A stretch of DNA of 64,000 nt from contig OZ241875.1 in NCBI GenBank assembly GCA_965203325.1, positions 3,104,001 to 3,168,000 on the forward strand. Reading direction: 5' to 3'. A model generated the notes under the pieces. It made no database searches. It was not told the DNA's origin and saw only the letters and a program-made list of their open reading frames with translations. Position 1 is the first letter of the stretch. Each line of letters starts with the position of its first letter. A program made the translations under genes and the position numbers. The DNA comes from a bacterium (GTDB lineage Bacteria; UBA8248). Of the stretch, positions 37,333 to 52,455 are shown piece after piece.

Positions 37333-38610
37333 ATGATACAGCCGGGCGCTACATCTTTACGGAAGATCGCGGTTGTCGGGAGAGGAACCGCAGGCTCCCT
37401 TGCGGCCGCCAAGGTCACTCGTCTTCTGCCCGAGAGCGACCATGAGCTGCACCACATATATGACTCGCGTATCCCGGCCCTCGGCGTGGGCGAAGGCAGC
37501 TGGCCGAGCCTGGTTCAGGAATTGCAGGAACTGACGAATCTGCCCCATGAAACCATCCAGCAGCGCTTGAATGGAACGCGCAAGTACGGCGTGACGTTCG
37601 AGGGATGGGGCCGGCGCAACCAGGACTTCACCCACTATTTCACGCCGCAACAGGTGTCCTACGCCTACCACCTGTCCGTCGACTTGATGGCGGACCTGCT
37701 GCATGAAAGCACGCGCGCGCGCCACATCGACGCGAAAGTACTCGATATCACCAGGGTGGAAGGCGGCGCGCAAGTGGAATTCGAGGGCCTGCCGCCGGAG
37801 CGCTACGACCTGGTTTTCGATGCTCGCGGATTTCCCCGAGAACTCGATCCCGAACGGCACATCGAACTCTCTTTCATTCCCACCAATACAGCCGTCATCC
37901 GCCGCTGTCCGGCAATCGTCGAAGCAGAGCAGGACGGACCGGTTCTGCAACCTACCTATACCCGGGCGGTTGCGCGTCCGCATGGTTGGATAGTCGTTAT
38001 TCCGCTTACGGCACACACATCCTACGGGTACGTCTTCAACCGAGACGTATCCGGCCTTGACGAAGTCGAATCGGACTTTGACGCTTTCCTCGAAAGCGAC
38101 GGCGTGTCGGAATTCGAGCAGCGCGCCGTCATTCCGTTTCCCAATTTCGTCCACCGCCGGATATTCGACGGCGCGGTAGTCCGCATCGGCAACGCAGCCG
38201 CTTTCATGGAACCCCTCGAAGCAACGGCGATCGTATCCGGACAGGTGGAGGTCGGGATGGCTCTCCAAATACGCCTGAACCGTTCGGCAGACCATCTCGA
38301 GCGTGACGCGCCGGTGGTCAATCGATTCCTCATCAACAACATGCTCTGCTTCGGCTTGTTCGTCGGTTGGCACTATTCCTGCGGCTCGAAGTACGATAGC
38401 GAATTCTGGAGATACGCCCGCGACCACGCCTGGCCGCAGCATCGAAAGGTGGCGGACCCTGAGTTCGTGGATTGCGACGCGCTCCGCAAATTCGACGAAA
38501 TGATTGAACTGAAGAACCAGTCGATCATTGACAAATCGGACTGGAATCGGACGTTGGCGTACTTCCCTCTCTCCTGTTATTGCCAGATGTCCCAGGGGCT
38601 GGGCTGCTAG
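37333..38610 (+). CDS. srpI: Flavin-dependent halogenase (tryptophan halogenase family), likely peptidyl-Trp halogenase
   Basis: GRGTAG FAD motif, GVGEG, catalytic Lys region GTRKYGV.F.GW, GWIVVIPL, GNAAAFMEPLEAT; context of an LCCCW precursor. Confidence 0.8.
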   Translation: MIQPGATSLRKIAVVGRGTAGSLAAAKVTRLLPESDHELHHIYDSRIPALGVGEGSWPSLVQELQELTNLPHETIQQRLNGTRKYGVTFEGWGRRNQDFTHYFTPQQVSYAYHLSVDLMADLLHESTRARHIDAKVLDITRVEGGAQVEFEGLPPERYDLVFDARGFPRELDPERHIELSFIPTNTAVIRRCPAIVEAEQDGPVLQPTYTRAVARPHGWIVVIPLTAHTSYGYVFNRDVSGLDEVESDFDAFLESDGVSEFEQRAVIPFPNFVHRRIFDGAVVRIGNAAAFMEPLEATAIVSGQVEVGMALQIRLNRSADHLERDAPVVNRFLINNMLCFGLFVGWHYSCGSKYDSEFWRYARDHAWPQHRKVADPEFVDCDALRKFDEMIELKNQSIIDKSDWNRTLAYFPLSCYCQMSQGLGC

Positions 38611-38640
38611 GCGCCGGTCTTGGGAAATTTCAACATCGGT

Positions 38641-38756
38641 TGATTCTACGCCATTGGTTTGGCCCCCCCGAGTCAAGAAACGAGGAAACGGAGGATGGCC
38701 AGGAAGGTCTGCAAGTCGGAGAAGATCGTTTGTCTGCTGCGTATGGAGTCCGTTTC
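38641..38756 (+). mobile_element. Degenerate IS3-family left end with orfA 5' fragment
   Basis: TG start; GGAGG then ATG at 38695 encoding MARKVCKSEKIVCLLR, similar to IS3 OrfA N-termini (M.RK....E.IV..LR). Confidence 0.4.
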
Positions 38757-38915
38757 AGGCCGTTGAAAAAGTCCCCGCCCTGTGGTTTCGTATAATTTTC
38801 AGCGCCCGTGAGGGGGAATCTCCGGAGATGTCGGGACGCAGACGGCGCGAGCAACCGGAATTGTTCGCGGCCGGTTCTCTGGAGCAACTCATCCCGGAGG
38901 ATAACGATCTGTTCC
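38757..38915 (+). mobile_element. IS1182-like left end and transposase N-terminal remnant
   Basis: AGGCCGTTGAAAAAGTCCC end, then ATG 38828 MSGRRRREQPELFAAGSLEQLIPEDNDL. Confidence 0.6.
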
Positions 38916-39048
38916 GTGCAACGGCAATCCGCTACTCCCAAACCGTGACATTTCTTGATCTGGATTGCCTGTAATTTTATGAGATATTTCCAAATGGGGT
39001 GAGATTTTTCACCTTGCCTGATTGCTACAAGGAGGCTACTCTGCGGTC

Positions 39049-39600
39049 GTGTTCAACAATCCGTTCGACTCATTTCATAAAACTGTTGCCGAAGCGAAGG
39101 AAGAACGCGAACAACTCGATCGGCTACTGACAGTTTCCACGCCGCGGGAGCGTCTGCTTGTCGCCGCCATTGCGCTTTTGCTGTGCATCCTCTCGGCATG
39201 GCTTTTCTTCGGCAACGTGGCTCGTAATATTGTGGTAGACGGCGCACTGGTCAAACAGGGCGAAAACTTGCCCGAGGGCAGACGGTCCGTGCAGGTCCTC
39301 GTCTGGGTCGAGAGCGGCATCGTTCCTCATATCGAGGCCGGGATGCCGGTGATGATTGAGCCGGATGCGGCAGACGGAGAAACAGGCGCACTTGCCGGAG
39401 AGGTCAGGGCGATTTCTGCCGTGCCCTTTTCCGGGGGGCTGGCTGCGTTTGGGTCCGCAGCGCCGGTGTCCGTGTACCGCATTGATATCGCGCTCGAAGA
39501 AAGTCTCGATTTGAGTTCCCTTGCGGGCAGGAAATGCCGGATTGTCATAGAGCTTGGCAGGCAATCTCCGATCGCACTATTTCGAATGAGGCGGTCATAA
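39049..39600 (+). CDS. Short NHLP-system secretion accessory protein (HlyD-like, lacking the coiled coil)
   Basis: EQLDRLLTV.TP..plus TM helix; C-terminal RQSPI.L; AAGGAGG upstream of GTG; directly before the NHLP ABC genes. Confidence 0.7.
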   Translation: MFNNPFDSFHKTVAEAKEEREQLDRLLTVSTPRERLLVAAIALLLCILSAWLFFGNVARNIVVDGALVKQGENLPEGRRSVQVLVWVESGIVPHIEAGMPVMIEPDAADGETGALAGEVRAISAVPFSGGLAAFGSAAPVSVYRIDIALEESLDLSSLAGRKCRIVIELGRQSPIALFRMRRS

Positions 39601-39601
39601 G

Positions 39602-41812
39602 ATGCCGTCTCTCACCTCCCCAAAAGCCGGCGATAAGGCCTCTTCGGACACATCGGCGCAGAGGGTAACCACGCCGATTCTGCTGCAGATGCATGTTTCA
39701 GAATGTGGCGCCGCCTGTCTCGGCATCGTACTGGCCTACTTCGGGCGTTGGGTGCCGCTTACCGAATTGCGCGAAAAATGCGAGGTGAGCCGGGACGGCA
39801 GCAGCGCCGCAAGCATCTTGCGCGCCTCCAGACACTATGGTCTCGAATGCAGTGGGCTCAGCATACGCGCCGAACAACTGAAAAAGCTGGAGTTGCCCTT
39901 GATTTTGTTCTGGCAATTCAGCCATTTCGTTGTCCTCGATGGATTCGATGGACGCTATTTCTATCTCAACGACCCCTCCACGGGGCGGCGCAGGGTTTCC
40001 GCCGAAGAGTTCAACAAGGGCTACAGTGGCATTGCGCTTCGTTTCAAGTGCGGCGCCGATTTCAGGCCCGGAGGCGAGCAACCCGACTTGTTCAGGCAAT
40101 TGGGCGCCTTGCTCTCCGGATCATGGAGTGTGCTTACCGGGGTGATTGCCTGCGGACTCATGTTGACGTTATTGACATTGATTATTCCCGCATCTCTCGG
40201 TGTTTTCGTCGACGATGTAATGAACAAACATGGGTCCTGGGGCGGATTGGTGACTGCCTTGCTCGGCGGCGGCGTCCTGGTATACGTCCTGTCCTTGCTC
40301 AAACACCGGTTCCTCAAGCGGCTCTCGGTCCGCTTGTCGGTGATTGGGTACAGTCGCGGCATGTCACGGCTGCTGCGGTTGCCGGTGGAGTTTTTTGAGC
40401 ACAGACTGGCGGGCGATCTGACCGATCGAGTCTCGTCCACCGACAGAATCGCCAAGAATCTGGCGGATCAGTTTCTTGTGCTCATCATCGACATGGCGAT
40501 GAGCGTGGTGTTGCTCGTGGCGATGTTCACCTACGATATCCTGCTCACGCTGGTTGTGCTTTTGCTGGCCCTTCTGCACGGGATGTTGGCCCACTTTCTC
40601 AACGCCCTCCGGGTTGTTCGAAGTCAGGCGATGAGACGCGAGCAGGGGTTGCTGATTGGCCTCGGTATGCAGATGTTGAGTCACGCGGACAATCTGCGCA
40701 TGACGGGAGCGGATGACCGGTTTTTTTCGCGCTGGAGTGGTCAACAGGCGCGTGAACTGCGTGCGCGCCAACTGTATTCCGAACTGGGCTCCGTCAATAC
40801 CTCGCTTCCGGGGCTGATTGACGCACTCCGCAGTGCGGCGATTCTCGGCATCGGGGGCAGTTTGGTCATGACCGGAGAAATGACCCTGGGGATGCTGGTC
40901 GGGTTTTACATCCTGGCGGAGATGTTTCTGGCTCCCGTCAAGCGATTTTTGGAGTTTGCGGAAAACCGTCAGGCGCTCGAAACCGATATGCAACGGTTCG
41001 AGGACATCTCCAAAACCGATGAAGATCCCGTTTTCAGCCGCAGGAGTCCGGAGCCGGAGTCAATCCCCACGTTCAACGGCCGGCTCCAGCTTGCGGGCCA
41101 ACTCGAACTGAGAAACGTCGCCTTCGGCTACAACAAGAGCCGACCGCCTTTGATAAAGGACTTCAGCCTCGTGATCAAGCCGGGGCAGCGCGTTGCCGTG
41201 GTCGGTCCCAGCGGTTCCGGCAAGTCGACCCTGGCGCGTCTGGTTTCGGGTGTCTATCAGCCCTGGTCGGGTGAAATCCTGTTTGATGGTCATCCGCGGG
41301 ATCAGGTTCCAGAAGAAGTGCTGCGGCAGTCCATATCCATGGTGGATCAGGAGATCGTGCTCTTTTCCGCTTCCCTGCGCGACAATATTACGTTGTGGAA
41401 CCCGGCCATTCCGGATGAAGTCATCTTCGCCGCGACACGGGATGCCCAGATCCATGACGAAATCCTGCTTCGAGCGCAGGGATATACGACCCTCGTCGAA
41501 GAGGGCGGGGCGAATTTCAGCGGCGGCCAGCAGCAACGCCTCGAAATCGCCCGTGCGTTGGTGGGCAATCCGACAGTGCTCATTCTGGACGAGGCTACCA
41601 GCGCACTCGATGCCGCAACGGAGGAATATGTCGATGATGCCCTGCGGCGTCGCGGCGTCACGTGCCTGATCGTTGCGCACCGGCTGAGCACCGTGCGGGA
41701 TTGCGATAGAATCATCGTGCTCGACAAAGGCGTCACGGTGCAATGCGGCACGCACGACGAGTTGATCGCGGATCGGGACGGCACGTATTACAAACTGGTG
41801 AAGTCGGGCTGA
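39602..41812 (+). CDS. NHLP bacteriocin export ABC transporter, C39 peptidase/permease/ATPase
   Basis: TP.LLQM...ECGAACL, VSRDGS, HFVV, LNDP; GPSGSGKST, FSGGQQQR, LDEATSALD. Confidence 0.93.
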   Translation: MPSLTSPKAGDKASSDTSAQRVTTPILLQMHVSECGAACLGIVLAYFGRWVPLTELREKCEVSRDGSSAASILRASRHYGLECSGLSIRAEQLKKLELPLILFWQFSHFVVLDGFDGRYFYLNDPSTGRRRVSAEEFNKGYSGIALRFKCGADFRPGGEQPDLFRQLGALLSGSWSVLTGVIACGLMLTLLTLIIPASLGVFVDDVMNKHGSWGGLVTALLGGGVLVYVLSLLKHRFLKRLSVRLSVIGYSRGMSRLLRLPVEFFEHRLAGDLTDRVSSTDRIAKNLADQFLVLIIDMAMSVVLLVAMFTYDILLTLVVLLLALLHGMLAHFLNALRVVRSQAMRREQGLLIGLGMQMLSHADNLRMTGADDRFFSRWSGQQARELRARQLYSELGSVNTSLPGLIDALRSAAILGIGGSLVMTGEMTLGMLVGFYILAEMFLAPVKRFLEFAENRQALETDMQRFEDISKTDEDPVFSRRSPEPESIPTFNGRLQLAGQLELRNVAFGYNKSRPPLIKDFSLVIKPGQRVAVVGPSGSGKSTLARLVSGVYQPWSGEILFDGHPRDQVPEEVLRQSISMVDQEIVLFSASLRDNITLWNPAIPDEVIFAATRDAQIHDEILLRAQGYTTLVEEGGANFSGGQQQRLEIARALVGNPTVLILDEATSALDAATEEYVDDALRRRGVTCLIVAHRLSTVRDCDRIIVLDKGVTVQCGTHDELIADRDGTYYKLVKSG

Positions 41813-44754
41813 TGCAGAATACAAGGCCGGAATACACGTCCATAGCCGAACTCGCCGCTCGCTTCGGCGCATCCGTGCCCTGCGCCGCCAACCTGCCGGT
41901 CAAGCTCGACGACCCGGATAGTGTCTGGTTCATCGATCAGGGTGCCGTCAATCTGTTCCTGGTCGAATTCAAGGACGGGGTGGAGCAGGCGGCGCCACAG
42001 CATCTGTTGCGCCGGGAATCGGGCTGGTTGCTGCCGGGTGTCGCCCCGGATCAACGAGACGGTGACGAGGACACGACGCTCAGCCTCATTGCCAAGGGAC
42101 AGCCGGGCACCCTTCTGAAACGTCTGCCGGCTTCCTTGCTGTCTCAGGTTCGTTCATCGGAACTGGCGGAACAGGCCGATACCTGGCTGACCGCCATTAC
42201 GGAAACACTGTCGCGTTTTGCAAGCCCCCTTCCGCGTCCGACTGCGCTGGCCGAACCCGGTCTGACGCAGACCCTGGCCCCTTGTACGCTATCCGTACGC
42301 CGCGGGGTGGTATGGGTATCCGAACCGCCGCGCGGCGCAAGCCTGTTCATGGGTATTATCGACCCGGCGGAACTTGCGGAGGCGTGCGGGCCTCACGAAG
42401 CCGTTATTCCGCTGACGCGGACAAGCTGGCTCACCTTGTTCGACGAGGCGACGCTGACGGGCGAATCTACCGAAACACTGGCGGAGCAAGGCATGCTGCT
42501 GCCGGCGCTCGCCTCTTTTCACGCGGTTGCTTTCACTCTGGAACGCCTGAACCGCCGACTGGTCGTGGCCGATGACGTCAATCTCGAACGCGCGCGGACA
42601 ACCAGCCGCCGCACGGCCGAAAATGCCGCGCGGCAGCGGCTCTTCAATATCTATGACCTTCCGATTGACCGGGATGCCGGTATCGAGGACACGGCGCTGG
42701 CGGATGCCCTGCAACTCATCGGGGACCATGAAGGAATCGATTTCAAGATACCGGCTCGCTCGGCACTTTCCGATTCTCCGGTCGGCCTCGTCGACGTTCT
42801 CGATGCGTCCGGCGTACGCGCCCGGCGCGTGCGGTTCAAAGCCGAGGGCAGCTGGTGGCGCGGCGACAGCAACGCGATGCTGGCATTCCGCGCCGAGGAC
42901 GGCCGCCCCGTGGCGCTGCTGCCGGGAATGTTCGGGCGATACCGGGAAATCGACCCGGTCAGCAAACGCCGCCTCCGGGTGACGGCGGACCGCGCGGGCG
43001 CGCTGAAAGAGGAGGCCTGGATGTTCTATCGGCCATTGCCGCCGGAGGACGTGAAACCGAAAGACCTGCTGGGAATGGCCCTGCACGGATCGGGCGCGGA
43101 TTTGGCGCGGCTGGTCATTTCCGGGCTTCCATACGGCTTGATCAACCTGCTGCCGGCGCTCGCGCTCGGGTTCGTTGCGAATCAAATTTTGGCGGGCGGA
43201 AGCGCAGAAGCGCTCTATGCCGTTGCCGTGGCGGTAGCAGCGTTCGGCCTGCTCGGCGCACTGCTGCACCTGTTTCAAAGCACGGCGATGATGCGGCTCG
43301 AGGGGCGCTCGGCATCCCGGCTCGAAGCCGCCTTCTGGGATCGTCTCATGCGCCTTCCGCCAAGCATTCTGCACCGCCATCCGGCCGGCGATCTGGCAAC
43401 CTCGGGAATGACGTTCCAGAATCTTCGCGACGGCTTGCGGGGGGTCGTCGCCGACAGTTTTCTGTCGCTCATTTTTCTGCTTCCGGTTTTCGGCGTCATT
43501 TTCTTCTACGACGCCACCCTCGGCCTCATCACCCTCGTCTTCAGCCTGGCTTCGCTGCTGGTCACCGTAGTCCTCGGGTTGCGCCAGATTCCACCTTATG
43601 GGCGTATGATCAGCGCAGCACGCCGCGTAGCCGGTCGACTGTTCCAGATCGTGGGAGGCATCTCCAAGCTGCGAATGGATAATGCGGAAGGGTCGGCTTA
43701 CGCCATCTGGGCGAAGGATTATCGTGAGCAGAAACGCGCGGAGATCGATCTGAGCGCGTTTGAGGGGCATTCGCGGGCGTTCGGCGCCGCGCTCCCTTTT
43801 CTGGCCGGCGGGGTACTGCTTTTTGCGGTGGCGTCGGCGGGAGACCGGAACATTCCGGTCGGCGATTTTCTCGTCGTTTACACGGTCTTTCTCGTTTTCC
43901 AGTCCTCCATCGCCCGGCTCGGTGAGTCCTTCGGCGCCATTGCCGCCATGCGGCCCGCGTTCGAGCAGATGGGCCCGCTGCTCTCCGCCGTTCCTGAAAC
44001 CGTGACGGAAGGAGAGCCGGTGGAATACCTGGGCGGTGAAATACTGTTCGACCGCATTTCCTTCCGCTACGACCCCGACGGTCCGTTGATTCTCGACGAC
44101 GTCACGATTCGCGCCCGTCCCGGCGAATTCGTTGCGATTGCCGGTGAGTCCGGCGCCGGCAAGAGCACCCTGTTCCGGCTCGCACTCGGCATTGACTGCC
44201 CGACCGCCGGTGCGGTGTATTACGACGGACGCGACCTGAGGCATCTGAATCTGAAGCAGGTGCGCCGGAAAATCGGCGCGGTGCCCCAATCCGTCGGACT
44301 CCATCCGCAAGATCTCTGGGACAATCTGGTCTCTCACCATGATGAAGTGGCGACGGAGGAGGTATGGGATGCGGTCCGGACCGCCGAAGTCGAAGCCCAG
44401 GTCAGGGACATGCCCATGGGCATGATGACCATGGTGGGCGCCAGCGGGTCCGTCCTCTCAGGCGGCGAGAGCCAGCGCATCACAATCGCCCGCTCGATAA
44501 TCGGCAGCCCTCGAATCATGTTGCTGGACGAGGCGACCAACTGGCTGGACAACGAAAGCCAGGCCAGGGTCATGGAGAACCTCGCCGCCCTGACTTCCAC
44601 CCGGCTCATCATTGCCCACCGGCTGTCCACGCTGGAACAGGCCGACCGCATCTACGTGCTGCAGGCCGGAAAAGTCGTGCAAAGCGGTTCCTTCGATGAA
44701 CTCAAGGAAGTCGACGGGGTATTCAAGGAATTGATCAAAAGGCAAATCGCTTGA
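41812..44754 (+). CDS. NHLP bacteriocin export ABC transporter permease/ATPase, second subunit (no active peptidase)
   Basis: ASGVR.R.V.....WW..D, PVALLP, A.WDRL.RLP, GESGAGKST, LSGGE.QR, LDEAT. Confidence 0.9.
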   Translation: MQNTRPEYTSIAELAARFGASVPCAANLPVKLDDPDSVWFIDQGAVNLFLVEFKDGVEQAAPQHLLRRESGWLLPGVAPDQRDGDEDTTLSLIAKGQPGTLLKRLPASLLSQVRSSELAEQADTWLTAITETLSRFASPLPRPTALAEPGLTQTLAPCTLSVRRGVVWVSEPPRGASLFMGIIDPAELAEACGPHEAVIPLTRTSWLTLFDEATLTGESTETLAEQGMLLPALASFHAVAFTLERLNRRLVVADDVNLERARTTSRRTAENAARQRLFNIYDLPIDRDAGIEDTALADALQLIGDHEGIDFKIPARSALSDSPVGLVDVLDASGVRARRVRFKAEGSWWRGDSNAMLAFRAEDGRPVALLPGMFGRYREIDPVSKRRLRVTADRAGALKEEAWMFYRPLPPEDVKPKDLLGMALHGSGADLARLVISGLPYGLINLLPALALGFVANQILAGGSAEALYAVAVAVAAFGLLGALLHLFQSTAMMRLEGRSASRLEAAFWDRLMRLPPSILHRHPAGDLATSGMTFQNLRDGLRGVVADSFLSLIFLLPVFGVIFFYDATLGLITLVFSLASLLVTVVLGLRQIPPYGRMISAARRVAGRLFQIVGGISKLRMDNAEGSAYAIWAKDYREQKRAEIDLSAFEGHSRAFGAALPFLAGGVLLFAVASAGDRNIPVGDFLVVYTVFLVFQSSIARLGESFGAIAAMRPAFEQMGPLLSAVPETVTEGEPVEYLGGEILFDRISFRYDPDGPLILDDVTIRARPGEFVAIAGESGAGKSTLFRLALGIDCPTAGAVYYDGRDLRHLNLKQVRRKIGAVPQSVGLHPQDLWDNLVSHHDEVATEEVWDAVRTAEVEAQVRDMPMGMMTMVGASGSVLSGGESQRITIARSIIGSPRIMLLDEATNWLDNESQARVMENLAALTSTRLIIAHRLSTLEQADRIYVLQAGKVVQSGSFDELKEVDGVFKELIKRQIA

Positions 44755-46213: not shown

Positions 46214-48610
46214 ATGCCACAAAGCCCGGTTGTAGGTGGTGGCTCCGATTCGAGCAACGCCGGCGCCGCTCAGCCTATCGAGCCGTCCATCCTGACCGCC
46301 ATTCCGCATTATCTGCCGTTGGTCGTTTTTCCGCTGATTCTTCTCGGCGCGCTCTATGGCGGCTGGTGGCTGTTGCCGCCGCTCGTCTTTATGAGTCTGG
46401 CCGGGGCGCTCGATCGGGCGCTGGGCCGGGACGGACAAACCATGGATCCGGTGAAAACGCCGGAACACCGCCTGTTCTGGCACAATCTGCCGGTCTGGTC
46501 GTGGTCGTTTCTGTGGCCGCCGACGCTCGTTTTCGGTATGTGGCAAATCCTGGCGGCGGATCAATTCTCATGGTGGGAAGGCGTGCTCCTGGCGGTCATC
46601 CTGACGATGGAAGCGCAAGCCGTGTTCGTCGTCGGCCACGAGATGATTCATCGGCGCACGACCTGGGAGCGCCGGGTCGGCGAGTTCCTGCTCGCCTCCG
46701 TCTCCTATCCGCAGTACGCGACGGAACACGTCTATATCCACCATGCCCTGGTCGGCACGCCCTACGACGTGGGTTCCGCCCCGAAGGGGGAGAGTTTCTG
46801 GAAGTATTTCCCCAAGGAAGTCGTCAGCAACCTCGTCCATTCCTGGGAAGTCGCGGGAGAACGCCTGGCGCGGCGCCGTCTGCCCGTCTGGCATTACGAC
46901 AATCCGTTCTGGCGCTACGCGATAGGCGTCGCGTTCTGGTACGCGCTGGTGTACTGGATGGGCGGGATCTGGGCCGTTCCGGTCTTTATCTTCCTCGGCC
47001 TGTCCTGCGTCTTTTCGATGAAGATGAGCAACTACTTTCAGCACTACGGCCTGCGGCGGGTCCGCCTGGAGAACGGTCGCTGGGAAAAGGCGATGCCGCG
47101 CCATTCCTGGAGCGCCGACTGGAAGTTCAGCAACTGGATGTTTTTCAACATGCAGCGTCATGCGGACCATCACGCGGTGGCGTCGCGCCAGTATCCCCTG
47201 CTGCAGGTCAGCGGCCTCGATGAGTCGCCGGAACTGCCGGGAACCTACGCCGACATGATGAACATCGTGCTGCGGCCCAAGCGCTGGTTCGAGAAGATGG
47301 ACCCGCTGGTGGACCAGTGGCGCGAGCATTTCTATCCGGATATCGACGACTGGAGCCCCTACGACAGCCCGATTGCCGCGGCGCGGCCCGACGCCTTCGA
47401 CGCGATACTCGAGATATTCGGCGCCGCCCCGCGGCTCGCGAAATGGATTGAGCGGAATCCGGAGCTTCTGGATAACCTGCAGGACCAGGAATTCCTCGAT
47501 CTCGACCTGCCGAAAGGGTTCGGGCCGGATGCGGAATACGAAGCGATTGCGCGGCGCGGGCTGGCGAGAGTCTACTGGACGTACGAAATGGACGTTCCGG
47601 AATTGAAGGGTCTGGTCGCCGAACTGCCGGTGGCCGACGCGAGGGAAACCGCCGAGATTGTGCGGAACTGGTCGAACGACAAGGCGTTTCAGATCGGCAT
47701 GCACGTCATGCGCGGAAACCTGCTGCCGGCGGAAGCGAGTACGGCGCTCTCGAATCTCGCCGAAGCATCGATTTCGACCGTGCTCGCCTCCGTGGTCGCG
47801 GATTACGTCGACCGCTTCGGGACGCTCAGCGTGGGCGGCGTCGCCGCCGTTTTCCTGGGCGATCTGGCCAGCCGGGAAGCATACCCCGGCGTTGGAATCG
47901 AAATGCTGATCCTACACAACGGCCGTCAGTCCGGCGAAAATGAACGCATGTTCGGGAGCTTCCGAAAGTCGCTGAGCGACCTGTCGCAGGACAGCCTGTT
48001 GTTCTCCCCGGTCCCGCACGGCTCGAATTCCATTCCTGCGTTGACGCTTTCCGATCTGGCCGAGAGTTTCGGAAATTCGACTTCCGGCGAGGTTCCCGCC
48101 CTCACCAGGGCGCGTTGCGCCTTCGAGTATGAAGGTTCCGATATCGCAGACCGCTTCGAGGAGGCGCGGCGCCGGATACTGACCGAATACAGCGCGAACA
48201 GGTCTTTGCCCGACTGGTTGCGCGAGTGGACCGAAGAGGGCGCCGAAAAAAACGTGTCCGCATACGCCCGGATGCGCGGCGGGCTGAACGATGTCGAGAA
48301 GGCCGCGCGCTACCTGCAGTTGGAGCGCGGCGGAAGCTTCCTCGACGACCCGGCGCCGAGCGCTGCGGCGGTGTTCGATGCCGCCGGCGCCGAACCGCTG
48401 GCGCAAGCCGCGGTCATGTGGCGGGATTTGCAGGGCGTCATGCGCCTCGTCGGCGAGGAAGGGTTCGACGCGGCGGCGGGGGGGACGAAGGTCAAATCCC
48501 TGATTGCGAACGCTTGCGGGCAGGAGGATTTCGATGTGCTGGCGTCGGCGGTCACCGAAACCGCATCCGTCGCCGCCGCCCGGATCGATACGCTTTTTTC
48601 GCGCACATAA
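46214..48610 (+). CDS. AlkB/fatty-acid-desaturase-type di-iron membrane enzyme fused to a degenerate GlnE-like nucleotidyltransferase domain
   Basis: His boxes HEMIHR, EHVYIHH, NYFQHYG, QRHADHH; C-half LSNLAE, RGGL.DVE..A.YLQL. Confidence 0.82.
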   Translation: MPQSPVVGGGSDSSNAGAAQPIEPSILTAIPHYLPLVVFPLILLGALYGGWWLLPPLVFMSLAGALDRALGRDGQTMDPVKTPEHRLFWHNLPVWSWSFLWPPTLVFGMWQILAADQFSWWEGVLLAVILTMEAQAVFVVGHEMIHRRTTWERRVGEFLLASVSYPQYATEHVYIHHALVGTPYDVGSAPKGESFWKYFPKEVVSNLVHSWEVAGERLARRRLPVWHYDNPFWRYAIGVAFWYALVYWMGGIWAVPVFIFLGLSCVFSMKMSNYFQHYGLRRVRLENGRWEKAMPRHSWSADWKFSNWMFFNMQRHADHHAVASRQYPLLQVSGLDESPELPGTYADMMNIVLRPKRWFEKMDPLVDQWREHFYPDIDDWSPYDSPIAAARPDAFDAILEIFGAAPRLAKWIERNPELLDNLQDQEFLDLDLPKGFGPDAEYEAIARRGLARVYWTYEMDVPELKGLVAELPVADARETAEIVRNWSNDKAFQIGMHVMRGNLLPAEASTALSNLAEASISTVLASVVADYVDRFGTLSVGGVAAVFLGDLASREAYPGVGIEMLILHNGRQSGENERMFGSFRKSLSDLSQDSLLFSPVPHGSNSIPALTLSDLAESFGNSTSGEVPALTRARCAFEYEGSDIADRFEEARRRILTEYSANRSLPDWLREWTEEGAEKNVSAYARMRGGLNDVEKAARYLQLERGGSFLDDPAPSAAAVFDAAGAEPLAQAAVMWRDLQGVMRLVGEEGFDAAAGGTKVKSLIANACGQEDFDVLASAVTETASVAAARIDTLFSRT

Positions 48611-48643
48611 AACGCGCCGGCCGAGCAGACGCGGAAACCCCGG

Positions 48644-50962
48644 ATGCCAACCCAGACGAAACGGAATCCCCCACGCGGGATATTGACGAAAACGACGCCT
48701 GCGGACCAGGGCCTCGTCGAGCTCCCCGCGCTCACCCCGCACCTGCAGTTCCGCGAAATCGACGAACGGCAGACGCTGCTGGTTTCCGAGTCGTTCGATA
48801 CGCTGCTGCACGGCGGCCTGTATGGCGATCTGCTGCCGCTTCTCGACGGCCGTCACCCGCATAACGAGATCGCCGCCGCCCTCGATGGCCGCCACCCCGC
48901 CGCCGATGTTCACGCGGCGATTGTTTCGCTCTCCGCCAGAGGCTATGTCGTCTCCGCCGATCATGGCATGGAACGGCCCCGGGCGGCCTACTGGTCGTCG
49001 CTCGGCGCATCGCCCCGCTGGGTCGAAGGGCGGCTGGCGCAGTCGCGAGTCGCGGTCGAAGGTGACGACGGCCGCCTCGTCCGGCACCTGGAAGAGGCCG
49101 GCATCGATATGGCGACCGGCGACCCCAAGCTCACCGTTGTCGTCTGCGAGGATTATCTCGACACACGGCTTGCAGAGGTGAACCGGCGCGCGCTCGAGGC
49201 GGGAGCGCCGTGGATGCTGGTGCGCCCGCGCGGAATGGAGGCGCTGTTCGGGCCCGTCTTTCGCGCGGATAAAGAAGGGCCCTGCTGGGAGTGCCTGGCT
49301 TGCCGCCTGCGCTGCCATAAGGAGGTCCACAATTTCCTGCGCAACTTCGCCGGTGAGGAAGCCGCCTTCAAGCCGTTCGCCGCCGAGTCCGGGGTCCTGG
49401 AGTCGCTGTACGGAATGATCGCGGCGGAGATCGTCAAATGGCTGGTGCTGGATGAGGCGGCCCCGATTCACGAGAACGCGATAGCGATGAACCTCGCCGC
49501 GTTCGAAAGTTCCAGGCATCCGGTGATGCGCCGCCCGCAGTGCCCCGCCTGCGGCGATGAGTCGCTCTATCGGCCGGACCGGCCGCCGGCGCCGCTTTGT
49601 CTGAGAGCGAGTCCCAAAACCCATCGCAACAGCGGCGGCGCGCGGGCCGTGACGCCCGAAGCGACCCTGGCGAAATACCGCCACCTGGTGAGCCCTGTCG
49701 GCGGGGTCGTTACATGGCTCGCGCGCACGACCGATGAGAGCGACTCCTGGCTGCACGTCTATTGGGCCGGGAGCAACCCCGGGGCGAGAAGCCGGAGCCT
49801 GAGTTCGCTCAGGCGCAGTTTGCGCAGCAAGAGCGCGGGCAAGGGCAGCACGCGGGAACAATCCGAGGCCAGCGCCCTGTGCGAGGCTATCGAGCGTTAC
49901 TCGGGCGCCTGGTGCGGAGACGAAATCTGCATCCGCAGGCGGTTCAACGACCTGGCTGCGGAAGAGGCGGCAATCCATCCCAACGATGTGCAGTTGTTCA
50001 GCGATTATCAGCTCGACAACGCGGAGAGCATCAACGCGAAAGGCCACCCGTACAACATCGTCCCGCCGCGTCTCGACCCCGATGCCGAAATCGACTGGAC
50101 CCCGGTCTGGTCGTTCACGCAGCGGCGGCATCGCTATCTGCCGACGTCGATGCTCTACAGCATGTCTCCCGAAGGGCGCGGCGGCGCCGATCTGATTGCC
50201 GACTCCAACGGCTGCGCCGCGGGGAACACCCTGGAGGAGGCCATCCTGCAGGGCTTCTATGAACTGGTCGAGCGCGATGCGTTCGCCATCTGGTGGTATA
50301 ACCGACTGAGAGCGCCCGGGGTCGATCTTTGCGGCTTTGACGACGAATTCCTCGCCTCGGCCGCGGGGTACTACGGCCGCTGCGAGCGGGAAGTGTGGAT
50401 GCTCGACGTTACCTCCGATATCGGGATTCCTTCGTTCGTCGCGCTATCGCGCAGACCGGACGCGGACACCGAGGACATCATATACGGCGCAGGCGCCCAT
50501 GCCGACCCGCGGCTGGCGGCCCTGCGCGCGGTTTGCGAGCTGAACCAGTGCCTTACCTGGCTGCCGCGTCCCGGCGGGGGCGACGGCAAGCCCATGATCG
50601 ACGATCCGCTGGCGCTCAGTTGGTGGAAGACGGCTCGACTTGCCGATTGTTCCTGGCTGGCGCCGGCACCGGACGCGCCGCTCAGGCAAGGCTCGCACTA
50701 TCCGGTGATCGAATCGGCGGACACGCGCGACGACGTGGAGCATTGCCGGGCGTTGGTGGAAGCCAAAGACATGGAGTTCCTCGTGCTGGACCAGACCCGG
50801 CCGGACATCGGGATGCCGGTTGCGCGGGTCATCGTGCCGGGCATGCGCCATTTCTGGGCGAGATTCGCGCCCGGGCGCCTCTACGACGCGCCCCTCGACA
50901 TGGGACGCCGCGAACACCCCCTGGCCGAAGCTGATTTGAATCCCGCGCCCGTGATCGCGTAA
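48644..50962 (+). CDS. srpC: Fused leader-binding (E1-like)/YcaO cyclodehydratase
   Basis: GP.F......CWECL..RL, RRPQCPACG, SAGKG, SALCEAIERYS, SNGCAAG, ELVERDA, RAVCEL, RVIVPGM, C-terminal NPAP. Confidence 0.92.
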   Translation: MPTQTKRNPPRGILTKTTPADQGLVELPALTPHLQFREIDERQTLLVSESFDTLLHGGLYGDLLPLLDGRHPHNEIAAALDGRHPAADVHAAIVSLSARGYVVSADHGMERPRAAYWSSLGASPRWVEGRLAQSRVAVEGDDGRLVRHLEEAGIDMATGDPKLTVVVCEDYLDTRLAEVNRRALEAGAPWMLVRPRGMEALFGPVFRADKEGPCWECLACRLRCHKEVHNFLRNFAGEEAAFKPFAAESGVLESLYGMIAAEIVKWLVLDEAAPIHENAIAMNLAAFESSRHPVMRRPQCPACGDESLYRPDRPPAPLCLRASPKTHRNSGGARAVTPEATLAKYRHLVSPVGGVVTWLARTTDESDSWLHVYWAGSNPGARSRSLSSLRRSLRSKSAGKGSTREQSEASALCEAIERYSGAWCGDEICIRRRFNDLAAEEAAIHPNDVQLFSDYQLDNAESINAKGHPYNIVPPRLDPDAEIDWTPVWSFTQRRHRYLPTSMLYSMSPEGRGGADLIADSNGCAAGNTLEEAILQGFYELVERDAFAIWWYNRLRAPGVDLCGFDDEFLASAAGYYGRCEREVWMLDVTSDIGIPSFVALSRRPDADTEDIIYGAGAHADPRLAALRAVCELNQCLTWLPRPGGGDGKPMIDDPLALSWWKTARLADCSWLAPAPDAPLRQGSHYPVIESADTRDDVEHCRALVEAKDMEFLVLDQTRPDIGMPVARVIVPGMRHFWARFAPGRLYDAPLDMGRREHPLAEADLNPAPVIA

Positions 50963-50971
50963 GGAAGCCAT

Positions 50972-52090
50972 ATGGATATCGACGAAGCAATCACGCTTAC
51001 CCAGGACCGTCTCGCCGAAGAAGGCGGCGCCATGGGAGATTTGCTCGGGCGCTTTCGGGGCAGGATTTCACCGGTTCTGATCGGAGATCCGGGGTGGGAG
51101 CGCATACTCGAATGCGCCGGGAAACTCCCAATCACCATGGGCGCCCAGCCGTTCGGTTTCGAGCTGCCTCTGCATGACGCTCGACCGGTGGCGGATTTCG
51201 GCGTCTCGCTGGCGAGCGGAAACCGCTCGGGTGATTTTTTCGAAGAGCGGGCGCGGACCGACGAGACGGACGAGACCGCGAGAGCGGTCGGGCGGCTGTT
51301 CCGGGAAATGGAAGCTCCGAACTCGCCCCTGCGGGAGATTGTGGGACGCAAGTTGATGCTGGAATACGACATAGATTCCGCGCCGGGCGGTAACAATCCG
51401 CTTCCCGGAATGTTCCTGCGGCCCAACGAGCGCACGTTATACGGCGGCGCAGGCCTCCAGAATGATATCGGAATCGTGGTGGACGCCCTCGTTTCCTGCG
51501 TCGGCTGGGAAAGGAATGCCGCTGAACGGGAAAACGCCGAACGGGTTTATCTGGCCCAGCCCGAAGACACGCGCCTGGATTCGTTCGGGGTATTCCCGTC
51601 CCGGGAACGCACAATCCGCCTGGCGATCATGGACTTCAAATCGCAGGGGGAAGTATGCCGCTATCTTGAAAACACGGGTTGGCCGGGTGATATATCGGCC
51701 GTCGAGTCCGTGATTTCACGCTTCCGGGAACGCGCGGATATCGTCAGAACCGGATTGAATATCGACGTGCGCGAAGAGGGTGTCGGTCCGGCGCTCGGCC
51801 TGACGCTTATCGTCAAACACAGATATACGAAAGATTCACGTTCTTGGCTCGACGGCCTGACCGATTGGGACGCATTTCTGGAAGCCTTGCGCCATGAGGA
51901 CCTTGTCGTTCCGGAGAAGGTTGAGGCGCTTGCCGAGTGGGTTTCAAAACCGACGACGCTTTTTGCCAAATCCGGGCCATTTTTACTGTTGCGGGGCATT
52001 CACCACATCAAGCTGGTCATATCCGGAGATCGGCTCAGGCAGGTCAAGGCCTATGTGTTCATGGTGCTTTCCGGAGCGGTCTCGGTTTGA
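50972..52090 (+). CDS. Hypothetical RiPP-cluster protein, possible ABBA-type prenyltransferase
   Basis: Co-operonic with YcaO; FGFE.PL.....ADF, LMLEYD, HHIKL....KAY; fold assignment is inference only. Confidence 0.55.
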   Translation: MDIDEAITLTQDRLAEEGGAMGDLLGRFRGRISPVLIGDPGWERILECAGKLPITMGAQPFGFELPLHDARPVADFGVSLASGNRSGDFFEERARTDETDETARAVGRLFREMEAPNSPLREIVGRKLMLEYDIDSAPGGNNPLPGMFLRPNERTLYGGAGLQNDIGIVVDALVSCVGWERNAAERENAERVYLAQPEDTRLDSFGVFPSRERTIRLAIMDFKSQGEVCRYLENTGWPGDISAVESVISRFRERADIVRTGLNIDVREEGVGPALGLTLIVKHRYTKDSRSWLDGLTDWDAFLEALRHEDLVVPEKVEALAEWVSKPTTLFAKSGPFLLLRGIHHIKLVISGDRLRQVKAYVFMVLSGAVSV

Positions 52091-52114
52091 GAGCTACCCT
52101 GGCAAAATAAAGCA

Positions 52115-52148
52115 AAAATCCCCTCGCCGAAGTCGAGCGGGGGATTTC
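52115..52148. terminator. Bidirectional terminator between the maturase operon and the precursor
   Basis: Imperfect hairpin AAATCCCCTCGC...GCGGGGGATTT between convergent genes. Confidence 0.6.
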
Positions 52149-52203
52149 TGACTTTTACATCATGCGGATTCGAGGCATCCGCGTGCCGACTGGTGTTTCC
52201 GGT

Positions 52204-52455
52204 CTACCAGCAGCAGCAAAGGCCGGCCGAGACGGCTTCGAGTTGCTCCTCGGTGATGTTCGGATCCGGCGGCAACGCAATATGCACCGTCTGCATGTCG
52301 CTCTCATGGACCACGACATTCATCGAGTCGGGAATCGTGATGCCCAATTCCCCACAGATGGTCCCCTTCGGGTCTGAGAGCAGCTGTTGCCTGAAATCTG
52401 CGTCCAGGGCGGATTTCTCGACAATCTGCTTCAACATTTCATCGCCACTTCTCAT
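52204..52455 (-). CDS. srpE: NHLP-leader (proteusin) RiPP precursor, core LCCCW
   Basis: D.DFRQQLLSDPK, VVVHE....VHIALP, ITEEQLEAVSAG cleavage motif followed by LCCCW-stop; RBS AAGGAGGT. Confidence 0.93.
   Translation of the reverse strand: MRSGDEMLKQIVEKSALDADFRQQLLSDPKGTICGELGITIPDSMNVVVHESDMQTVHIALPPDPNITEEQLEAVSAGLCCCW

What the first reader, a model, noticed from the sequence alone, without database searches (positions are those of the whole stretch)
37333..52455. Complete srp-type proteusin cluster predicted to make a halogenated tri-thiazoline peptide with a possible terpenoid unit
Seen: halogenase, three export genes, leader-cyclase fusion, AlkB-GlnE fusion, YcaO, an unknown protein, and a precursor with a 78-aa leader and LCCCW core. 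Known (from recall): sponge-microbiome srp clusters with an LCCCW core, YcaO SrpC and the Trp brominase SrpI have been described, so the family is not new. To my knowledge the mature product and the roles of the other enzymes are open. Inference: Cys cyclodehydration and Trp halogenation, then prenylation, terpene cyclisation and di-iron oxidation, giving a peptide-terpenoid hybrid.
Basis: partly seen in the sequence, partly recalled or inferred. Interest (0 to 1): 0.85.

Follow-up and report, generated by a model that had tools for sequence, protein, structure and literature searches.

The report
Known sponge-symbiont srp peptide gene cluster
This is an intact copy of the published srp gene cluster of marine-sponge bacteria, which turns the tiny peptide LCCCW into a thiazoline-containing, brominated product, and three of its uncharacterised genes look like enzymes that attach, cyclise and oxidise an isoprenoid lipid.

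Summary
Window 37333-52455 holds nine genes of an srp-type proteusin cluster, including an 83-aa NHLP precursor that ends in LCCCW. The srp family is published (precursor SrpE, YcaO SrpC, Trp-6 brominase SrpI), and this scan has already reported copies of it on other DNA.

What I add is about the uncharacterised genes:
- The 372-aa 'unknown' protein models confidently as an ABBA aromatic prenyltransferase barrel (Z 16.4 to MpnD).
- The 433-aa protein is a leader-like NHLP domain fused to a single-domain class II terpene cyclase (Z 21.9 to drimenol synthase, 20.8 to MstE). It carries a D-L-D-S acid motif in 75 of 75 orthologs.
- The 798-aa protein is a true AlkB-type di-iron monooxygenase with a degenerate GlnE-like tail.

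These genes travel with the YcaO gene and the precursor across many phyla: 60, 56 and 55 of 61 full-flank loci.

One caveat concerns the acceptor. Related clusters keep the prenyltransferase and AlkB genes but have no cyclase, no halogenase and mostly no Trp in the core. The prenyl acceptor may therefore not be Trp.

Verdict: a known cluster. The terpenoid reading is well supported in silico but unproven.

The parts
37333..38610 (+). Flavin-dependent Trp-halogenase family protein, 425 aa (SrpI-type peptidyl brominase candidate)
   Evidence: PF04820 at 7e-44. Closest solved chains are 9luq at 2.4e-23 and MibH (5uao) at 5.5e-23. Motifs GRGTAG at 16, K84 in RKYG, WIVVIP at 219 and FMEPLE at 291 are present. 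Orthologs of 69-82% identity lie in 37 of 80 loci. In 5 of 5 further genomes the gene lies 0.5-4 kb beyond the fetched flank.
38611..39021 (.). 411-nt spacer; the 148-aa ORF at 38528-38974 is probably not a gene
   Evidence: No family hit. tblastn gives only a partial match, in 1 of 80 loci.
39022..39600 (+). Short HlyD-like periplasmic adaptor, 192 aa
   Evidence: Weak hit to the N-terminal part of TIGR03794, 6e-8. Conserved at this short length in 60 of 80 loci.
39602..41812 (+). NHLP-type export ABC transporter with an N-terminal C39 peptidase; expected to remove the leader after ...SAG
   Evidence: TIGR03796 at 854 bits; PF03412 at 6e-33. Present in 66 of 80 loci.
41743..44754 (+). Second NHLP-type ABC permease/ATPase with an N-terminal extension of about 316 aa
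   Evidence: TIGR03797 at 660 bits over residues 317-1002. Present in 67 of 80 loci.
44830..46131 (+). 433-aa fusion: NHLP leader-like domain (about residues 1-80), a linker, then a single-domain class II terpene-cyclase-like (alpha/alpha)6 barrel (about 110-433) with D209-L-D211-S-T
   Evidence: TIGR03793 at 3.9e-11; one SQHop_cyclase_C repeat. Foldseek gives class II cyclases at E 4e-7. VIA gives Z 21.9 to drimenol synthase, 20.8 to MstE and 18.4 to SHC, against about 14 for generic barrels. D-L-D-S-[T/S] is present in 75 of 75 orthologs. The gene is in 75 of 80 loci and 60 of 61 full-flank loci.
46214..48610 (+). 798-aa fusion: AlkB-type integral-membrane di-iron monooxygenase (about 1-370) plus a degenerate GlnE-like nucleotidyltransferase domain (about 390-798)
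   Evidence: Matches alkane 1-monooxygenase 8f6t at 2.4e-46, with HEMIH at 142, EHVYIHH at 171, NYFQHYG at 273 and RHADHH at 315. GlnE 3k7d matches only at E 0.024, with its DLD aligned to G-I-E. Acidic residues at both positions occur in 2 of 51 srp-type sequences. The gene is in 69 of 80 loci.
48644..50962 (+). SrpC-type cyclodehydratase: wHTH (RRE-like) + E1-like + YcaO, 772 aa
   Evidence: PF02624 at 2.5e-92; TIGR03882 at 2.2e-39; TIGR03604 at 5.7e-81. 340 of 365 candidate stretches in species-representative genomes encode a relative.
50972..52090 (+). 372-aa ABBA-fold (PT-barrel) protein; the likely peptide prenyltransferase. It starts 9 nt after the YcaO stop codon
   Evidence: No Pfam or NCBIfam hit. 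The AlphaFold2 model has pLDDT 87.7 and pTM 0.88, with five alpha-alpha-beta-beta units. Foldseek: 63 chains at E<=1e-3, and the listed matches are aromatic or indole prenyltransferases. VIA: Z 16.4 to MpnD, with 133 chains at Z>=8. The Atlas neighbours include a Trp_DMAT cluster at 0.90. The gene lies directly downstream of YcaO in 66 of 71 loci.
52091..52203 (.). Convergent intergenic region with a GC-rich hairpin between the prenyltransferase stop and the precursor stop
   Evidence: Read directly from the sequence.
52204..52455 (-). SrpE-type NHLP precursor: 83 aa, 78-aa leader, core LCCCW
   Evidence: TIGR03793 at 66.6 bits; translation. The core is LCCCW in 73 of 75 orthologous precursors. 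A strong AGGAGG lies before the ATG, and a promoter-like site at 52540-52511 on the - strand. The promoter scan as a whole found no more sites than shuffled sequence gives.

Best explanation
This is a complete, horizontally spread srp-family RiPP operon.

Steps shown by others for the orthologs:
1. The YcaO enzyme turns the three Cys of the leader-bound core LCCCW into thiazolines. No azoline dehydrogenase is encoded in the cluster.
2. The flavin halogenase brominates the C-terminal Trp in a leader-dependent way.

Steps inferred here:
3. The 372-aa ABBA-barrel protein transfers an isoprenoid, probably C15 or C20, from a prenyl diphosphate to the modified peptide.
4. The class II cyclase domain protonates the distal double bond through D211 of the D-L-D-S motif and closes the chain into rings. 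Its leader-like NHLP domain probably brings it to the leader-handling machinery or to the precursor.
5. The AlkB-type membrane di-iron enzyme hydroxylates the lipid part.
6. The C39-peptidase ABC exporter cuts after ...SAG and exports a small, very hydrophobic lipopeptide.

The acceptor atom, the donor length and the order of the steps are unknown.
For: Identity as an srp cluster:
- Precursor, YcaO and halogenase are present.
- Passages in PMC10858898 and PMC10286304 give the LCCCW core, SrpC making three thiazolines, and SrpI acting as a leader-dependent Trp-6 brominase.

Prenyltransferase:
- The model is confident (pLDDT 87.7).
- The listed Foldseek and VIA matches are ABBA prenyltransferases (E 2e-6; Z 16.4 at rmsd 4.5 over 306 residues; 133 chains at Z>=8).
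- The Atlas gives Trp_DMAT and PTase_Orf2 neighbours.

Cyclase:
- Z 21.9 to AsDMS and 20.8 to MstE, which stand 6-8 units above generic barrels.
- D-L-D-S-[T/S] is present in 75 of 75 orthologs.
- Offsets counted from the first aligned residue put D211 within 3-5 residues of the general acids D323/D333 of AsDMS and D109 of MstE.
- PMC12232559 (passages) says the middle Asp of a variable DXDD motif is the acid, and that AsDMS has DXDT.

AlkB:
- E 2.4e-46 to 8f6t, with all His boxes present.

Linkage:
- One + strand operon with gaps of -70 to 82 nt from the HlyD-like gene to the prenyltransferase gene.
- Of 61 full-flank loci from many phyla, 60 have the cyclase, 56 the prenyltransferase, 55 the AlkB gene and 59 the precursor.
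- No window flank gene is shared with any of the 110 fetched loci.

Precedent:
- The review PMC13290415 (passages) describes NctPC, an ABBA prenyltransferase fused to an MstE-like cyclase, which puts geranylgeranyl on Trp of a ribosomal peptide and then cyclises it.

Lipid context in relatives:
- Six related loci were scanned. MMPL/sterol-sensing exporters occur in 4, methyltransferases with CMAS-family matches in 5, FAD_binding_4/cytokinin-dehydrogenase-like oxidases in 2, and a CrtI-like amine oxidase in 1.
Against: - No experiment bears on the three inferred steps.
- The prenyltransferase assignment rests on fold alone: no Pfam or NCBIfam prenyltransferase model matches.
- The cyclase model is poor overall (pLDDT 64.7), and residues 194-222, which hold the D-L-D-S motif, are below pLDDT 50. 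The equivalence of D211 to the known acids therefore rests on offsets, not on a superposition.
- A profile comparison with squalene-hopene cyclases aligned only one QW-type repeat.
- No rubredoxin gene was found in this genome, which is 95% complete, so the electron supply for AlkB is unexplained.
- No prenyl-diphosphate synthase lies in the cluster; two lie elsewhere in the genome.
- 24 related loci carry a prenyltransferase homologue of 37-53% identity. None has a cyclase hit (11 of them are at least 15 kb long) and none has a halogenase hit. Only 1 of their 16 precursors ends in Trp. A Trp acceptor is therefore not a family trait.
- The original srp paper (PMC8780398) and the polycyclic-isoprenoid RiPP paper (PMC11484575) are not held, so I could not see what they say about these genes.
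Confidence: 0.6

Rival explanations
1. The isoprenoid is real but is not put on Trp. The ABBA enzyme alkylates a site shared by all cores of the wider family: a Cys thiol before cyclodehydration, the thiazoline block, or a peptide terminus. In the srp branch proper, Trp serves only as the bromination site, or as the nucleophile that ends the cyclase cascade.
For: - 24 related loci keep the YcaO (60-77% identity), prenyltransferase (37-53%) and AlkB-GlnE genes. Their cores read LCCCT, LSCCL, LCCCGI, LCCCGF, LCCCG, LSCCG, FCCCI and RCCC; 15 of 16 precursors lack Trp.
- Consensus blocks of the prenyltransferase (PFGFE, FPxRxRxxRL, RGIHHxK, KAY) persist across 54 family members down to 25% identity.
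- The cyclase and halogenase appear only where the core ends in LCCCW. The toroid HMM hits 4 of 4 srp-type loci and 0 of 24 related loci.
Against: - Most of the closest structural neighbours of the 372-aa model are indole or Trp prenyltransferases.
- The only described peptide prenyltransferase-cyclase pair acts on Trp (PMC13290415, passages).
- ABBA enzymes are known to change acceptor easily (general knowledge), so relatives at 37-53% identity may simply use another residue.
- Several related loci are short, so their gene sets are incomplete.
Confidence: 0.3
2. Only the published chemistry happens (three thiazolines and one bromine). The ABBA-fold, toroid and AlkB-like proteins are not maturases of the peptide. 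They would be scaffolds, immunity or export helpers, or relics.
For: - In the passages I saw (PMC10286304, PMC10858898), only cyclodehydration and bromination are reported for the SrpE core.
- The GlnE-like domain is degenerate.
- No rubredoxin is found.
- No prenyltransferase sequence model matches.
Against: - The proteins are very strongly conserved: medians of 74-75% identity across phyla, and no stop codon in 75 cyclase and 70 prenyltransferase orthologs.
- The acid motif is invariant.
- All AlkB His boxes are intact.
- The prenyltransferase gene is tightly coupled to the YcaO gene (9-nt gap).
Confidence: 0.12
3. The three enzymes make a separate small meroterpenoid that is not joined to the peptide, so the locus would be two pathways side by side.
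For: MstE and the drimenol and drimenyl-diphosphate synthases, the closest cyclase structures, act on small molecules. Most ABBA enzymes also act on small aromatic substrates.
Against: - The cyclase carries a RiPP leader-like NHLP domain.
- The genes sit between the RiPP exporter and the YcaO gene in one operon.
- They co-vary with the core sequence.
- No gene that would supply an aromatic substrate is in the cluster.
Confidence: 0.08

Closest known systems
srp (sponge-derived RiPP proteusin) gene clusters: SrpE, SrpC, SrpI (Nguyen et al., J Am Chem Soc 2021, PMC8780398; not held, known to me only through citing papers)
   Same: NHLP precursor with the core LCCCW, a fused E1-like/YcaO cyclodehydratase, a compact Trp-halogenase family enzyme, NHLP-type exporters, and a distribution across many bacterial phyla. 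The public runs that hold this stretch are mostly labelled sponge metagenome.
   Different: Nothing that I can show; this looks like one more copy. I could not compare it with the published SrpC, SrpE or SrpI sequences because none is held. I also could not see how the paper annotates the other genes.
[quoted passage not shown]
   Same: An ABBA-barrel prenyltransferase and an MstE-like single-domain class II cyclase act on a ribosomal peptide (a proteusin, by my recall of the abstract). The core contains Trp.
   Different: Here the two activities sit on separate proteins. The cyclase is fused to a leader-like NHLP domain instead of to the prenyltransferase. The peptide also carries thiazolines and bromine, and an AlkB-type oxygenase is added. 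No sequence comparison was possible.
MstE and drimenol synthase AsDMS (single beta-domain class II terpene cyclases; PDB 6sbb-6sbg, 9mhs, 9m7d)
   Same: An (alpha/alpha)6 barrel of about 320 residues (Z 20-22). A DXD(D/T/S)-type motif lies about 100 residues into the domain.
   Different: Sequence identity is 15-18%. The fourth motif residue is Ser. An N-terminal NHLP domain is present. The substrate is presumably a prenylated peptide rather than a small molecule.
DMATS-type and Orf2-type ABBA aromatic prenyltransferases (MpnD, CymD, IptA, PriB, NphB) and cyanobactin prenyltransferases
   Same: A ten-strand antiparallel barrel built from five alpha-alpha-beta-beta units.
   Different: Identity is 7-14% and no Pfam model matches. 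The protein belongs to a family of its own, with 721 representatives at E<=1e-3. Its acceptor is unknown.
AlkB alkane 1-monooxygenase (PDB 8f6t, 8sbb)
   Same: All the His boxes and the membrane core are present (E 2.4e-46).
   Different: It is fused to a degenerate GlnE-like domain rather than to rubredoxin, and no rubredoxin is found in the genome.

Membership tests
srp RiPP cluster family | NHLP (proteusin) precursor whose core is LCCCW | tested here: met
   TIGR03793 at 66.6 bits; the precursor ends ...SAGLCCCW. The same core occurs in 73 of 75 orthologs.
srp RiPP cluster family | YcaO cyclodehydratase with a leader-binding domain (SrpC type) and no azoline dehydrogenase | tested here: met
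   PF02624 at 2.5e-92; TIGR03882 at 2.2e-39; wHTH domain. No nitroreductase hit among the cluster ORFs.
srp RiPP cluster family | SrpI-type peptidyl Trp brominase | tested here: inconclusive
   The protein belongs to the Trp-halogenase family and has its cofactor and Lys motifs. Orthology to the published SrpI sequence and the preference for bromide could not be tested, because no SrpI sequence or structure is held.
srp RiPP cluster family | Occurs in sponge microbiomes across many phyla | tested here: met
   80 loci come from MAGs labelled Alpha- and Gammaproteobacteria, Nitrospirota, Nitrospinota, Gemmatimonadota, Acidobacteriota, Binatia and others. The holder runs are mostly labelled sponge metagenome and come from 7 studies.
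ABBA (PT-barrel) aromatic prenyltransferases | Barrel of five alpha-alpha-beta-beta repeats | tested here: met
   The secondary-structure order in the model fits. Z 13-16 to more than 50 solved ABBA prenyltransferase entries, over 270-306 residues.
ABBA (PT-barrel) aromatic prenyltransferases | Sequence membership (PF11991 Trp_DMAT or PF11468 PTase_Orf2) | tested here: not met
   No Pfam hit at E<=0.01 for the protein or for 54 family members. The Atlas gives only feature-level neighbours.
ABBA (PT-barrel) aromatic prenyltransferases | Basic and Tyr residues lining the barrel to hold the diphosphate; prenyl transfer activity | tested here: inconclusive
   Conserved R/K/H/Y residues lie on predicted strands (FPSRERTIR at 208, RGIHHIK at 341, KAY at 359). 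I could not map them in three dimensions. Activity cannot be tested with these tools.
Class II terpene cyclases (single beta domain, MstE/AsDMS type) | (alpha/alpha)6 beta-domain fold | tested here: met
   Z 21.9 (rmsd 3.4, 264 residues) to 9mhs_B and Z 20.8 to 6sbc. Class II cyclases fill the top 32 rows.
Class II terpene cyclases (single beta domain, MstE/AsDMS type) | DXDD-type motif whose middle Asp is the general acid | tested here: inconclusive
   D209-L-D211-S-[T/S] is present in 75 of 75 orthologs, and its position lies within 3-5 residues of the known acids by offset. The motif sits in a low-confidence part of the model, and no residue-level superposition was available.
AlkB integral-membrane di-iron monooxygenases | HXXXH, HXXXHH, NYXXHYG and HXXHH boxes | tested here: met
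   Aligned to 8f6t at E 2.4e-46. The boxes lie at 142, 171, 273 and 315 and are conserved in 51 sequences.
AlkB integral-membrane di-iron monooxygenases | Rubredoxin electron partner | tested here: not met
   PF00301 has 0 matches in the 4.39-Mb genome (95% complete), while 7 of 14 control genomes give a match.
GlnE-type nucleotidyltransferases | Catalytic pair of carboxylates (DxD) after the G-x-L-G-G/S motif | tested here: not met
   DLD of GlnE aligns to G-I-E in the window copy. Acidic residues at both positions occur in 2 of 51 srp-type sequences and in 9 of 17 metagenome relatives.
Fused prenyltransferase-cyclase RiPP maturases (NctPC type) | Prenyltransferase and cyclase in one polypeptide | tested here: not met
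   They are separate genes, 50972-52090 and 44830-46131. None of the 150 representatives listed (of 721 hits) is longer than 540 aa.

The most novel reading that the evidence does not exclude
The srp end product would be a lipopeptide, not just a brominated tri-thiazoline pentapeptide. An ABBA enzyme family with no sequence-model membership would attach a long isoprenoid at a site shared by all (C/S)CC cores, so not at Trp. That would be a peptide prenylation chemistry without a described precedent. In the LCCCW branch, a cyclase carrying its own copy of the leader fold would then close the chain, possibly onto the indole, and AlkB would hydroxylate it. The leader-tagged enzyme would be a new way of bringing a maturase to a RiPP assembly.
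Probability: 0.2. Interest if true: 0.8.

Novelty: already known. Interest (0 to 1): 0.42.

Why it matters
srp clusters are among the most widespread RiPP clusters of sponge microbiomes and are reported to be highly transcribed there (bioRxiv 10.1101/2023.06.09.544420, passages). In the papers I could read, the final product and its role remain undescribed. If the conserved prenyltransferase, cyclase and AlkB genes act on the peptide, the product that chemists should look for in sponge extracts is a heavier, lipophilic, brominated peptide-terpenoid. Heterologous work using only SrpC and SrpI would then have stopped at an intermediate. The related clusters without Trp give a natural comparison set for finding the acceptor. 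The practical gain is a sharper and cheap experiment, not a new kind of system.

Tried and rejected
- **Complex prediction** of the prenyltransferase with the cyclase fusion: median score 0.05 against a mark of 0.32. This gives no verdict either way.
- **Profile comparison** of the toroid alignment with eight squalene-hopene cyclases from related genomes: only one QW-type repeat aligned (probability 29%), so it says nothing about the acid motif.
- **HMM search of solved chains** with the cyclase alignment: only nitrile-hydratase-like hits for the N-terminal domain and one SHC repeat (E 0.005).
- **Search for fused, longer forms** of the prenyltransferase: the length band came out as 873-2490 aa, so fusions of 650-870 aa were not examined. 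Finding none is not informative.
- **Pfam on nine longer family members**: no family.
- **Window flank ORFs:** none of 13 is found in the 110 fetched loci, so the flanks are not part of the cluster.
- **The 45-nt repeat** near both ends (35688 and 52873) is a genome-wide element, not an island border.
- **RNA:** one metatranscriptome library holds contigs of 90-99% likeness over 28 of 30 bins. Most of them are from relatives, and DNA carry-over cannot be excluded, so I do not count this as expression of this operon.
- **Papers not held:** PMC8780398 (original srp paper), PMC11484575 (Hubrich 2024) and PMC7613056 (MstE).
- **Papers opened without useful passages:** no 'srp' passage in PMC12426817, PMC12858407, PMC13083261 or PMC9505594. 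PMC12537861 gave none on the srp genes. PMC12715784 (outline only) concerns lanthipeptide prenyltransferases.
- **Supplements of PMC10858898**: nothing on the gene map.

Full report
**1. What is there**

Window 37333-52455 holds eight genes on the + strand and one convergent gene on the - strand.

| Coordinates | Strand | Product | Main evidence |
|---|---|---|---|
| 37333-38610 | + | Trp-halogenase family flavoenzyme | PF04820, 7e-44 |
| 39022-39600 | + | 192-aa HlyD-like protein | weak TIGR03794 hit |
| 39602-41812 | + | NHLP-type exporter with C39 peptidase | TIGR03796, 854 bits |
| 41743-44754 | + | second exporter subunit | TIGR03797, 660 bits |
| 44830-46131 | + | 433-aa protein: NHLP-like N-terminus plus one squalene-cyclase-type repeat | |
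| 46214-48610 | + | 798-aa FA_desaturase + GlnE-like protein | |
| 48644-50962 | + | 772-aa wHTH + E1-like + YcaO protein | PF02624, 2.5e-92 |
| 50972-52090 | + | 372-aa protein with no Pfam or NCBIfam hit | |
| 52204-52455 | - | 83-aa NHLP precursor ending ...AVSAG-LCCCW | |

From the HlyD-like gene to the 372-aa gene the gaps are -70 to 82 nt. The 372-aa gene starts 9 nt after the YcaO stop codon. The 148-aa ORF in the 411-nt gap after the halogenase gene is not conserved.

**2. It is a known family**

Passages in PMC10858898 and PMC10286304 state three things:
- SrpE has the core LCCCW.
- The YcaO enzyme SrpC turns its three Cys into thiazolines.
- SrpI brominates indole C6 of the C-terminal Trp, and only when the leader is attached.

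A preprint (10.1101/2023.06.09.544420, passages) reports such precursors in 191 clusters of sponge bacteria, with high transcription. The original paper (PMC8780398) is not held, so I could not see how it labels the other genes. I recall, without checking, that YcaO is SrpC and the precursor SrpE, which suggests the letters A, B and D for the cyclase fusion, the AlkB fusion and the 372-aa protein.

Earlier agents of this scan filed look-alike stretches in other genomes as the known srp cluster. Four of them also proposed isoprenoid handling. That is the same idea reached again, not independent evidence.

**3. Conservation**

A scan of one genome per species with the YcaO protein found relatives in 340 of 365 candidate stretches. 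The 80 best (69-91% identity) come from MAGs labelled as at least eight phyla or classes.

I ran tblastn of the window's proteins on these 80 loci. A gene counted as present at >=45% identity and >=60% coverage (precursor: >=60% and >=90%).

| Gene | Present in 80 loci | Present in 61 loci with about 10 kb on both sides |
|---|---|---|
| Cyclase fusion | 75 | 60 |
| 372-aa protein | 71 (+7 cut by the locus end) | 56 |
| AlkB fusion | 69 (+1 cut) | 55 |
| Precursor | 75 | 59 |
| ABC1 | 66 | 53 |
| ABC2 | 67 | 54 |
| HlyD-like | 60 | 47 |
| Halogenase | 37 (+4 cut) | 30 |

- The low halogenase count is partly an effect of the flank limit. In 5 of 5 complete genomes without a hit, the gene lies 0.5-4 kb beyond the fetched end.
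- The core is LCCCW in 73 of 75 precursors; the other two read LSCCW and LCCSW.
- None of 13 flanking ORFs of the window occurs in any of the 110 fetched loci. The cluster is therefore a self-contained unit that sits in different neighbourhoods.

**4. The 'unknown' 372-aa protein**

- It has more than 1000 close homologs without any family label, and 721 representatives at E<=1e-3 in a library clustered at 50% identity.
- With a 28-row alignment, AlphaFold2 gives pLDDT 87.7 and pTM 0.88. The model has five alpha-alpha-beta-beta units.
- Foldseek finds 63 solved chains at E<=1e-3, and the listed matches are aromatic or indole prenyltransferases.
- VIA gives Z 16.4 to MpnD (rmsd 4.5, 306 residues) and 133 chains at Z>=8.
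- The protein Atlas puts a Trp_DMAT cluster at 0.90.
- No prenyltransferase sequence model matches.

It is an ABBA-fold protein and most likely a prenyltransferase, but this rests on fold alone.

**5. The 433-aa protein**

- Residues 1-80 match NHLP leaders and nitrile hydratase alpha. Where the precursor has ITEEQLEAVSAG, the fusion has F-T-E-A-E-R-E-E-A-R-T-G-A. It therefore lacks the second Leu of the L(X)4L motif that SrpI reads (PMC10858898, PMC12455567, passages).
- The whole-protein model is poor (pLDDT 64.7). Even so, residues 111-433 match class II terpene cyclases: Foldseek E 4e-7; VIA Z 21.9 to drimenol synthase, 20.8 to MstE, 19.4 to a myxobacterial single-domain cyclase and 18.4 to SHC. 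Unrelated (alpha/alpha)6 barrels score about 14.
- The Atlas neighbours are proteins of 320-360 aa carrying SQHop_cyclase_C or AstC-like domains.
- D209-L-D211-S-[T/S] is present in 75 of 75 orthologs.
- Counting from the first aligned residue, D211 falls 3 residues from the general acid of drimenol synthase in both numbering schemes, and 5 residues from D109 of MstE. PMC12232559 (passages) states that the middle Asp of a variable DXDD motif is the acid and that AsDMS has DXDT.
- These offsets ignore insertions and deletions, and the motif lies in a low-confidence stretch of the model. I call the equivalence likely, not shown.

**6. The 798-aa protein**

- Residues 52-368 align with alkane 1-monooxygenase 8f6t at E 2.4e-46, with all His boxes. 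The boxes are conserved in 51 sequences.
- The C-terminal part matches GlnE only at E 0.024. The catalytic DLD of GlnE aligns to G-I-E.
- Acidic residues at both of these positions occur in 2 of 51 srp-type sequences, against 9 of 17 metagenome relatives.
- The genome has no rubredoxin hit and no squalene-hopene cyclase. It has two polyprenyl synthases, both far from the cluster.

**7. Precedent**

The review PMC13290415 (passages and reference list) describes two enzymes:
- NctPC, an ABBA prenyltransferase fused to an MstE-like cyclase, which geranylgeranylates a Trp of a ribosomal peptide and then cyclises the chain.
- ChrPC, which has another prenyltransferase fold.

The source paper (Hubrich 2024, PMC11484575) is not held. 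A full-text search for proteusin + terpene cyclase + prenyltransferase found 0 papers. A search for proteusin, prenyl, cyclase and sponge returned 224 papers holding three of the four terms; I judged the 15 listed ones by title and abstract start, and none concerns these srp genes. A search for SrpA, SrpB, SrpD and SrpI found no relevant paper. The kind of chemistry is therefore known. I could not find its assignment to srp in print, but the two key papers were out of reach.

**8. Related clusters**

A metagenome scan with five distant members of the 372-aa family gave 30 loci, and 28 of them carry a homologue.
- Four are srp-type: 59-73% identical to the window protein, with a cyclase hit, and with the core LCCCW in the three that hold a precursor.
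- Twenty-four are relatives with the prenyltransferase at 37-53%, the YcaO at 60-77% and the AlkB-GlnE at 45-61% identity. None has a halogenase hit. None has a toroid-HMM hit even at E 10, and 11 of them are at least 15 kb long.
- The 16 precursors of these relatives end in LCCCT, LSCCL (4), LCCCGI (3), LCCCGF, LCCCG, LSCCG, FCCCI, RCCC (3) and RCCCCW.
- Pfam on 31 ORFs of six such loci shows MMPL/sterol-sensing exporters in 4 loci, methyltransferases with CMAS-family matches in 5, FAD_binding_4/cytokinin-dehydrogenase-like oxidases in 2, a CrtI-like amine oxidase in 1 and a ThcOx-type azoline oxidase in 1.

I read this two ways. It strengthens the case that the family makes lipidated peptides. 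It weakens the assumption that Trp is the acceptor, because the cyclase and the halogenase, not the prenyltransferase, go with Trp.

**9. Habitat**

Runs that hold the stretch come from 7 studies and are mostly labelled sponge metagenome. RNA-library contigs of relatives cover 28 of 30 bins, which is at most a weak hint of transcription.

**10. Verdict**

The terpenoid hypothesis now has a named candidate for each step and a clear experiment, but no proof. The acceptor, the donor length, the order of steps, the role of the NHLP tag and the electron donor for AlkB remain open.

Noticed in passing
L099-L126 (metagenome loci), e.g. L105:5065-21017 and L100:4088-21074: A sister family of clusters carries YcaO, the ABBA-fold protein, AlkB-GlnE and NHLP precursors. 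The cores read LCCCT, LSCCL, LCCCGI, RCCC and similar. These clusters have no cyclase and no halogenase. They add CMAS-like methyltransferases, cytokinin-dehydrogenase-like and CrtI-like oxidases and MMPL exporters.
   Followed up: partly
window 35688-35732, 52798-52848 and 52873-52919: A palindromic element of about 45 nt (core ACCCCCCTGACAAGGGGGG) lies on both sides of the region. It is a genome-wide REP-like repeat, with 129 matches at up to 1 mismatch against 0 for the reversed control. It is not a border of the cluster.
   Followed up: yes
G000:C1:1912250-1912474 and 3711043-3711255 (L002, L003): Two further NHLP-type precursor-like genes (40% and 31% identity to the srp precursor) lie elsewhere in the same genome, so it may hold other proteusin clusters.
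   Followed up: no
window 47840-47910 (residues 543-566 of the 798-aa protein): The nucleotidyltransferase motif of the GlnE-like domain is degenerate in srp-type copies but keeps two acidic residues in 9 of 17 metagenome relatives. The domain may be active only in the sister family.
   Followed up: partly
window 41743-42690 (first ~316 residues of ABC2): The second ABC subunit has a long N-terminal extension that lies outside the TIGR03797 match and has no family hit. Its annotated start overlaps ABC1 by 70 nt, so the true start may be later.
   Followed up: no
window 23991-27428: A 1145-aa ORF with Cadherin-like and Calx-beta domains lies in a stretch of 70-73% G+C, well above the window's usual 56-66%.
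   Followed up: no
window 6462-7079: An ORF with a SocA/Panacea antitoxin-like domain (PF13274, 8.5e-26).
   Followed up: no
window 53110-58490: Downstream of the cluster lie a branched-chain-type periplasmic binding protein, a methylmalonyl-CoA mutase, MeaB and an AMP-binding enzyme. None is shared with other srp loci.
   Followed up: yes
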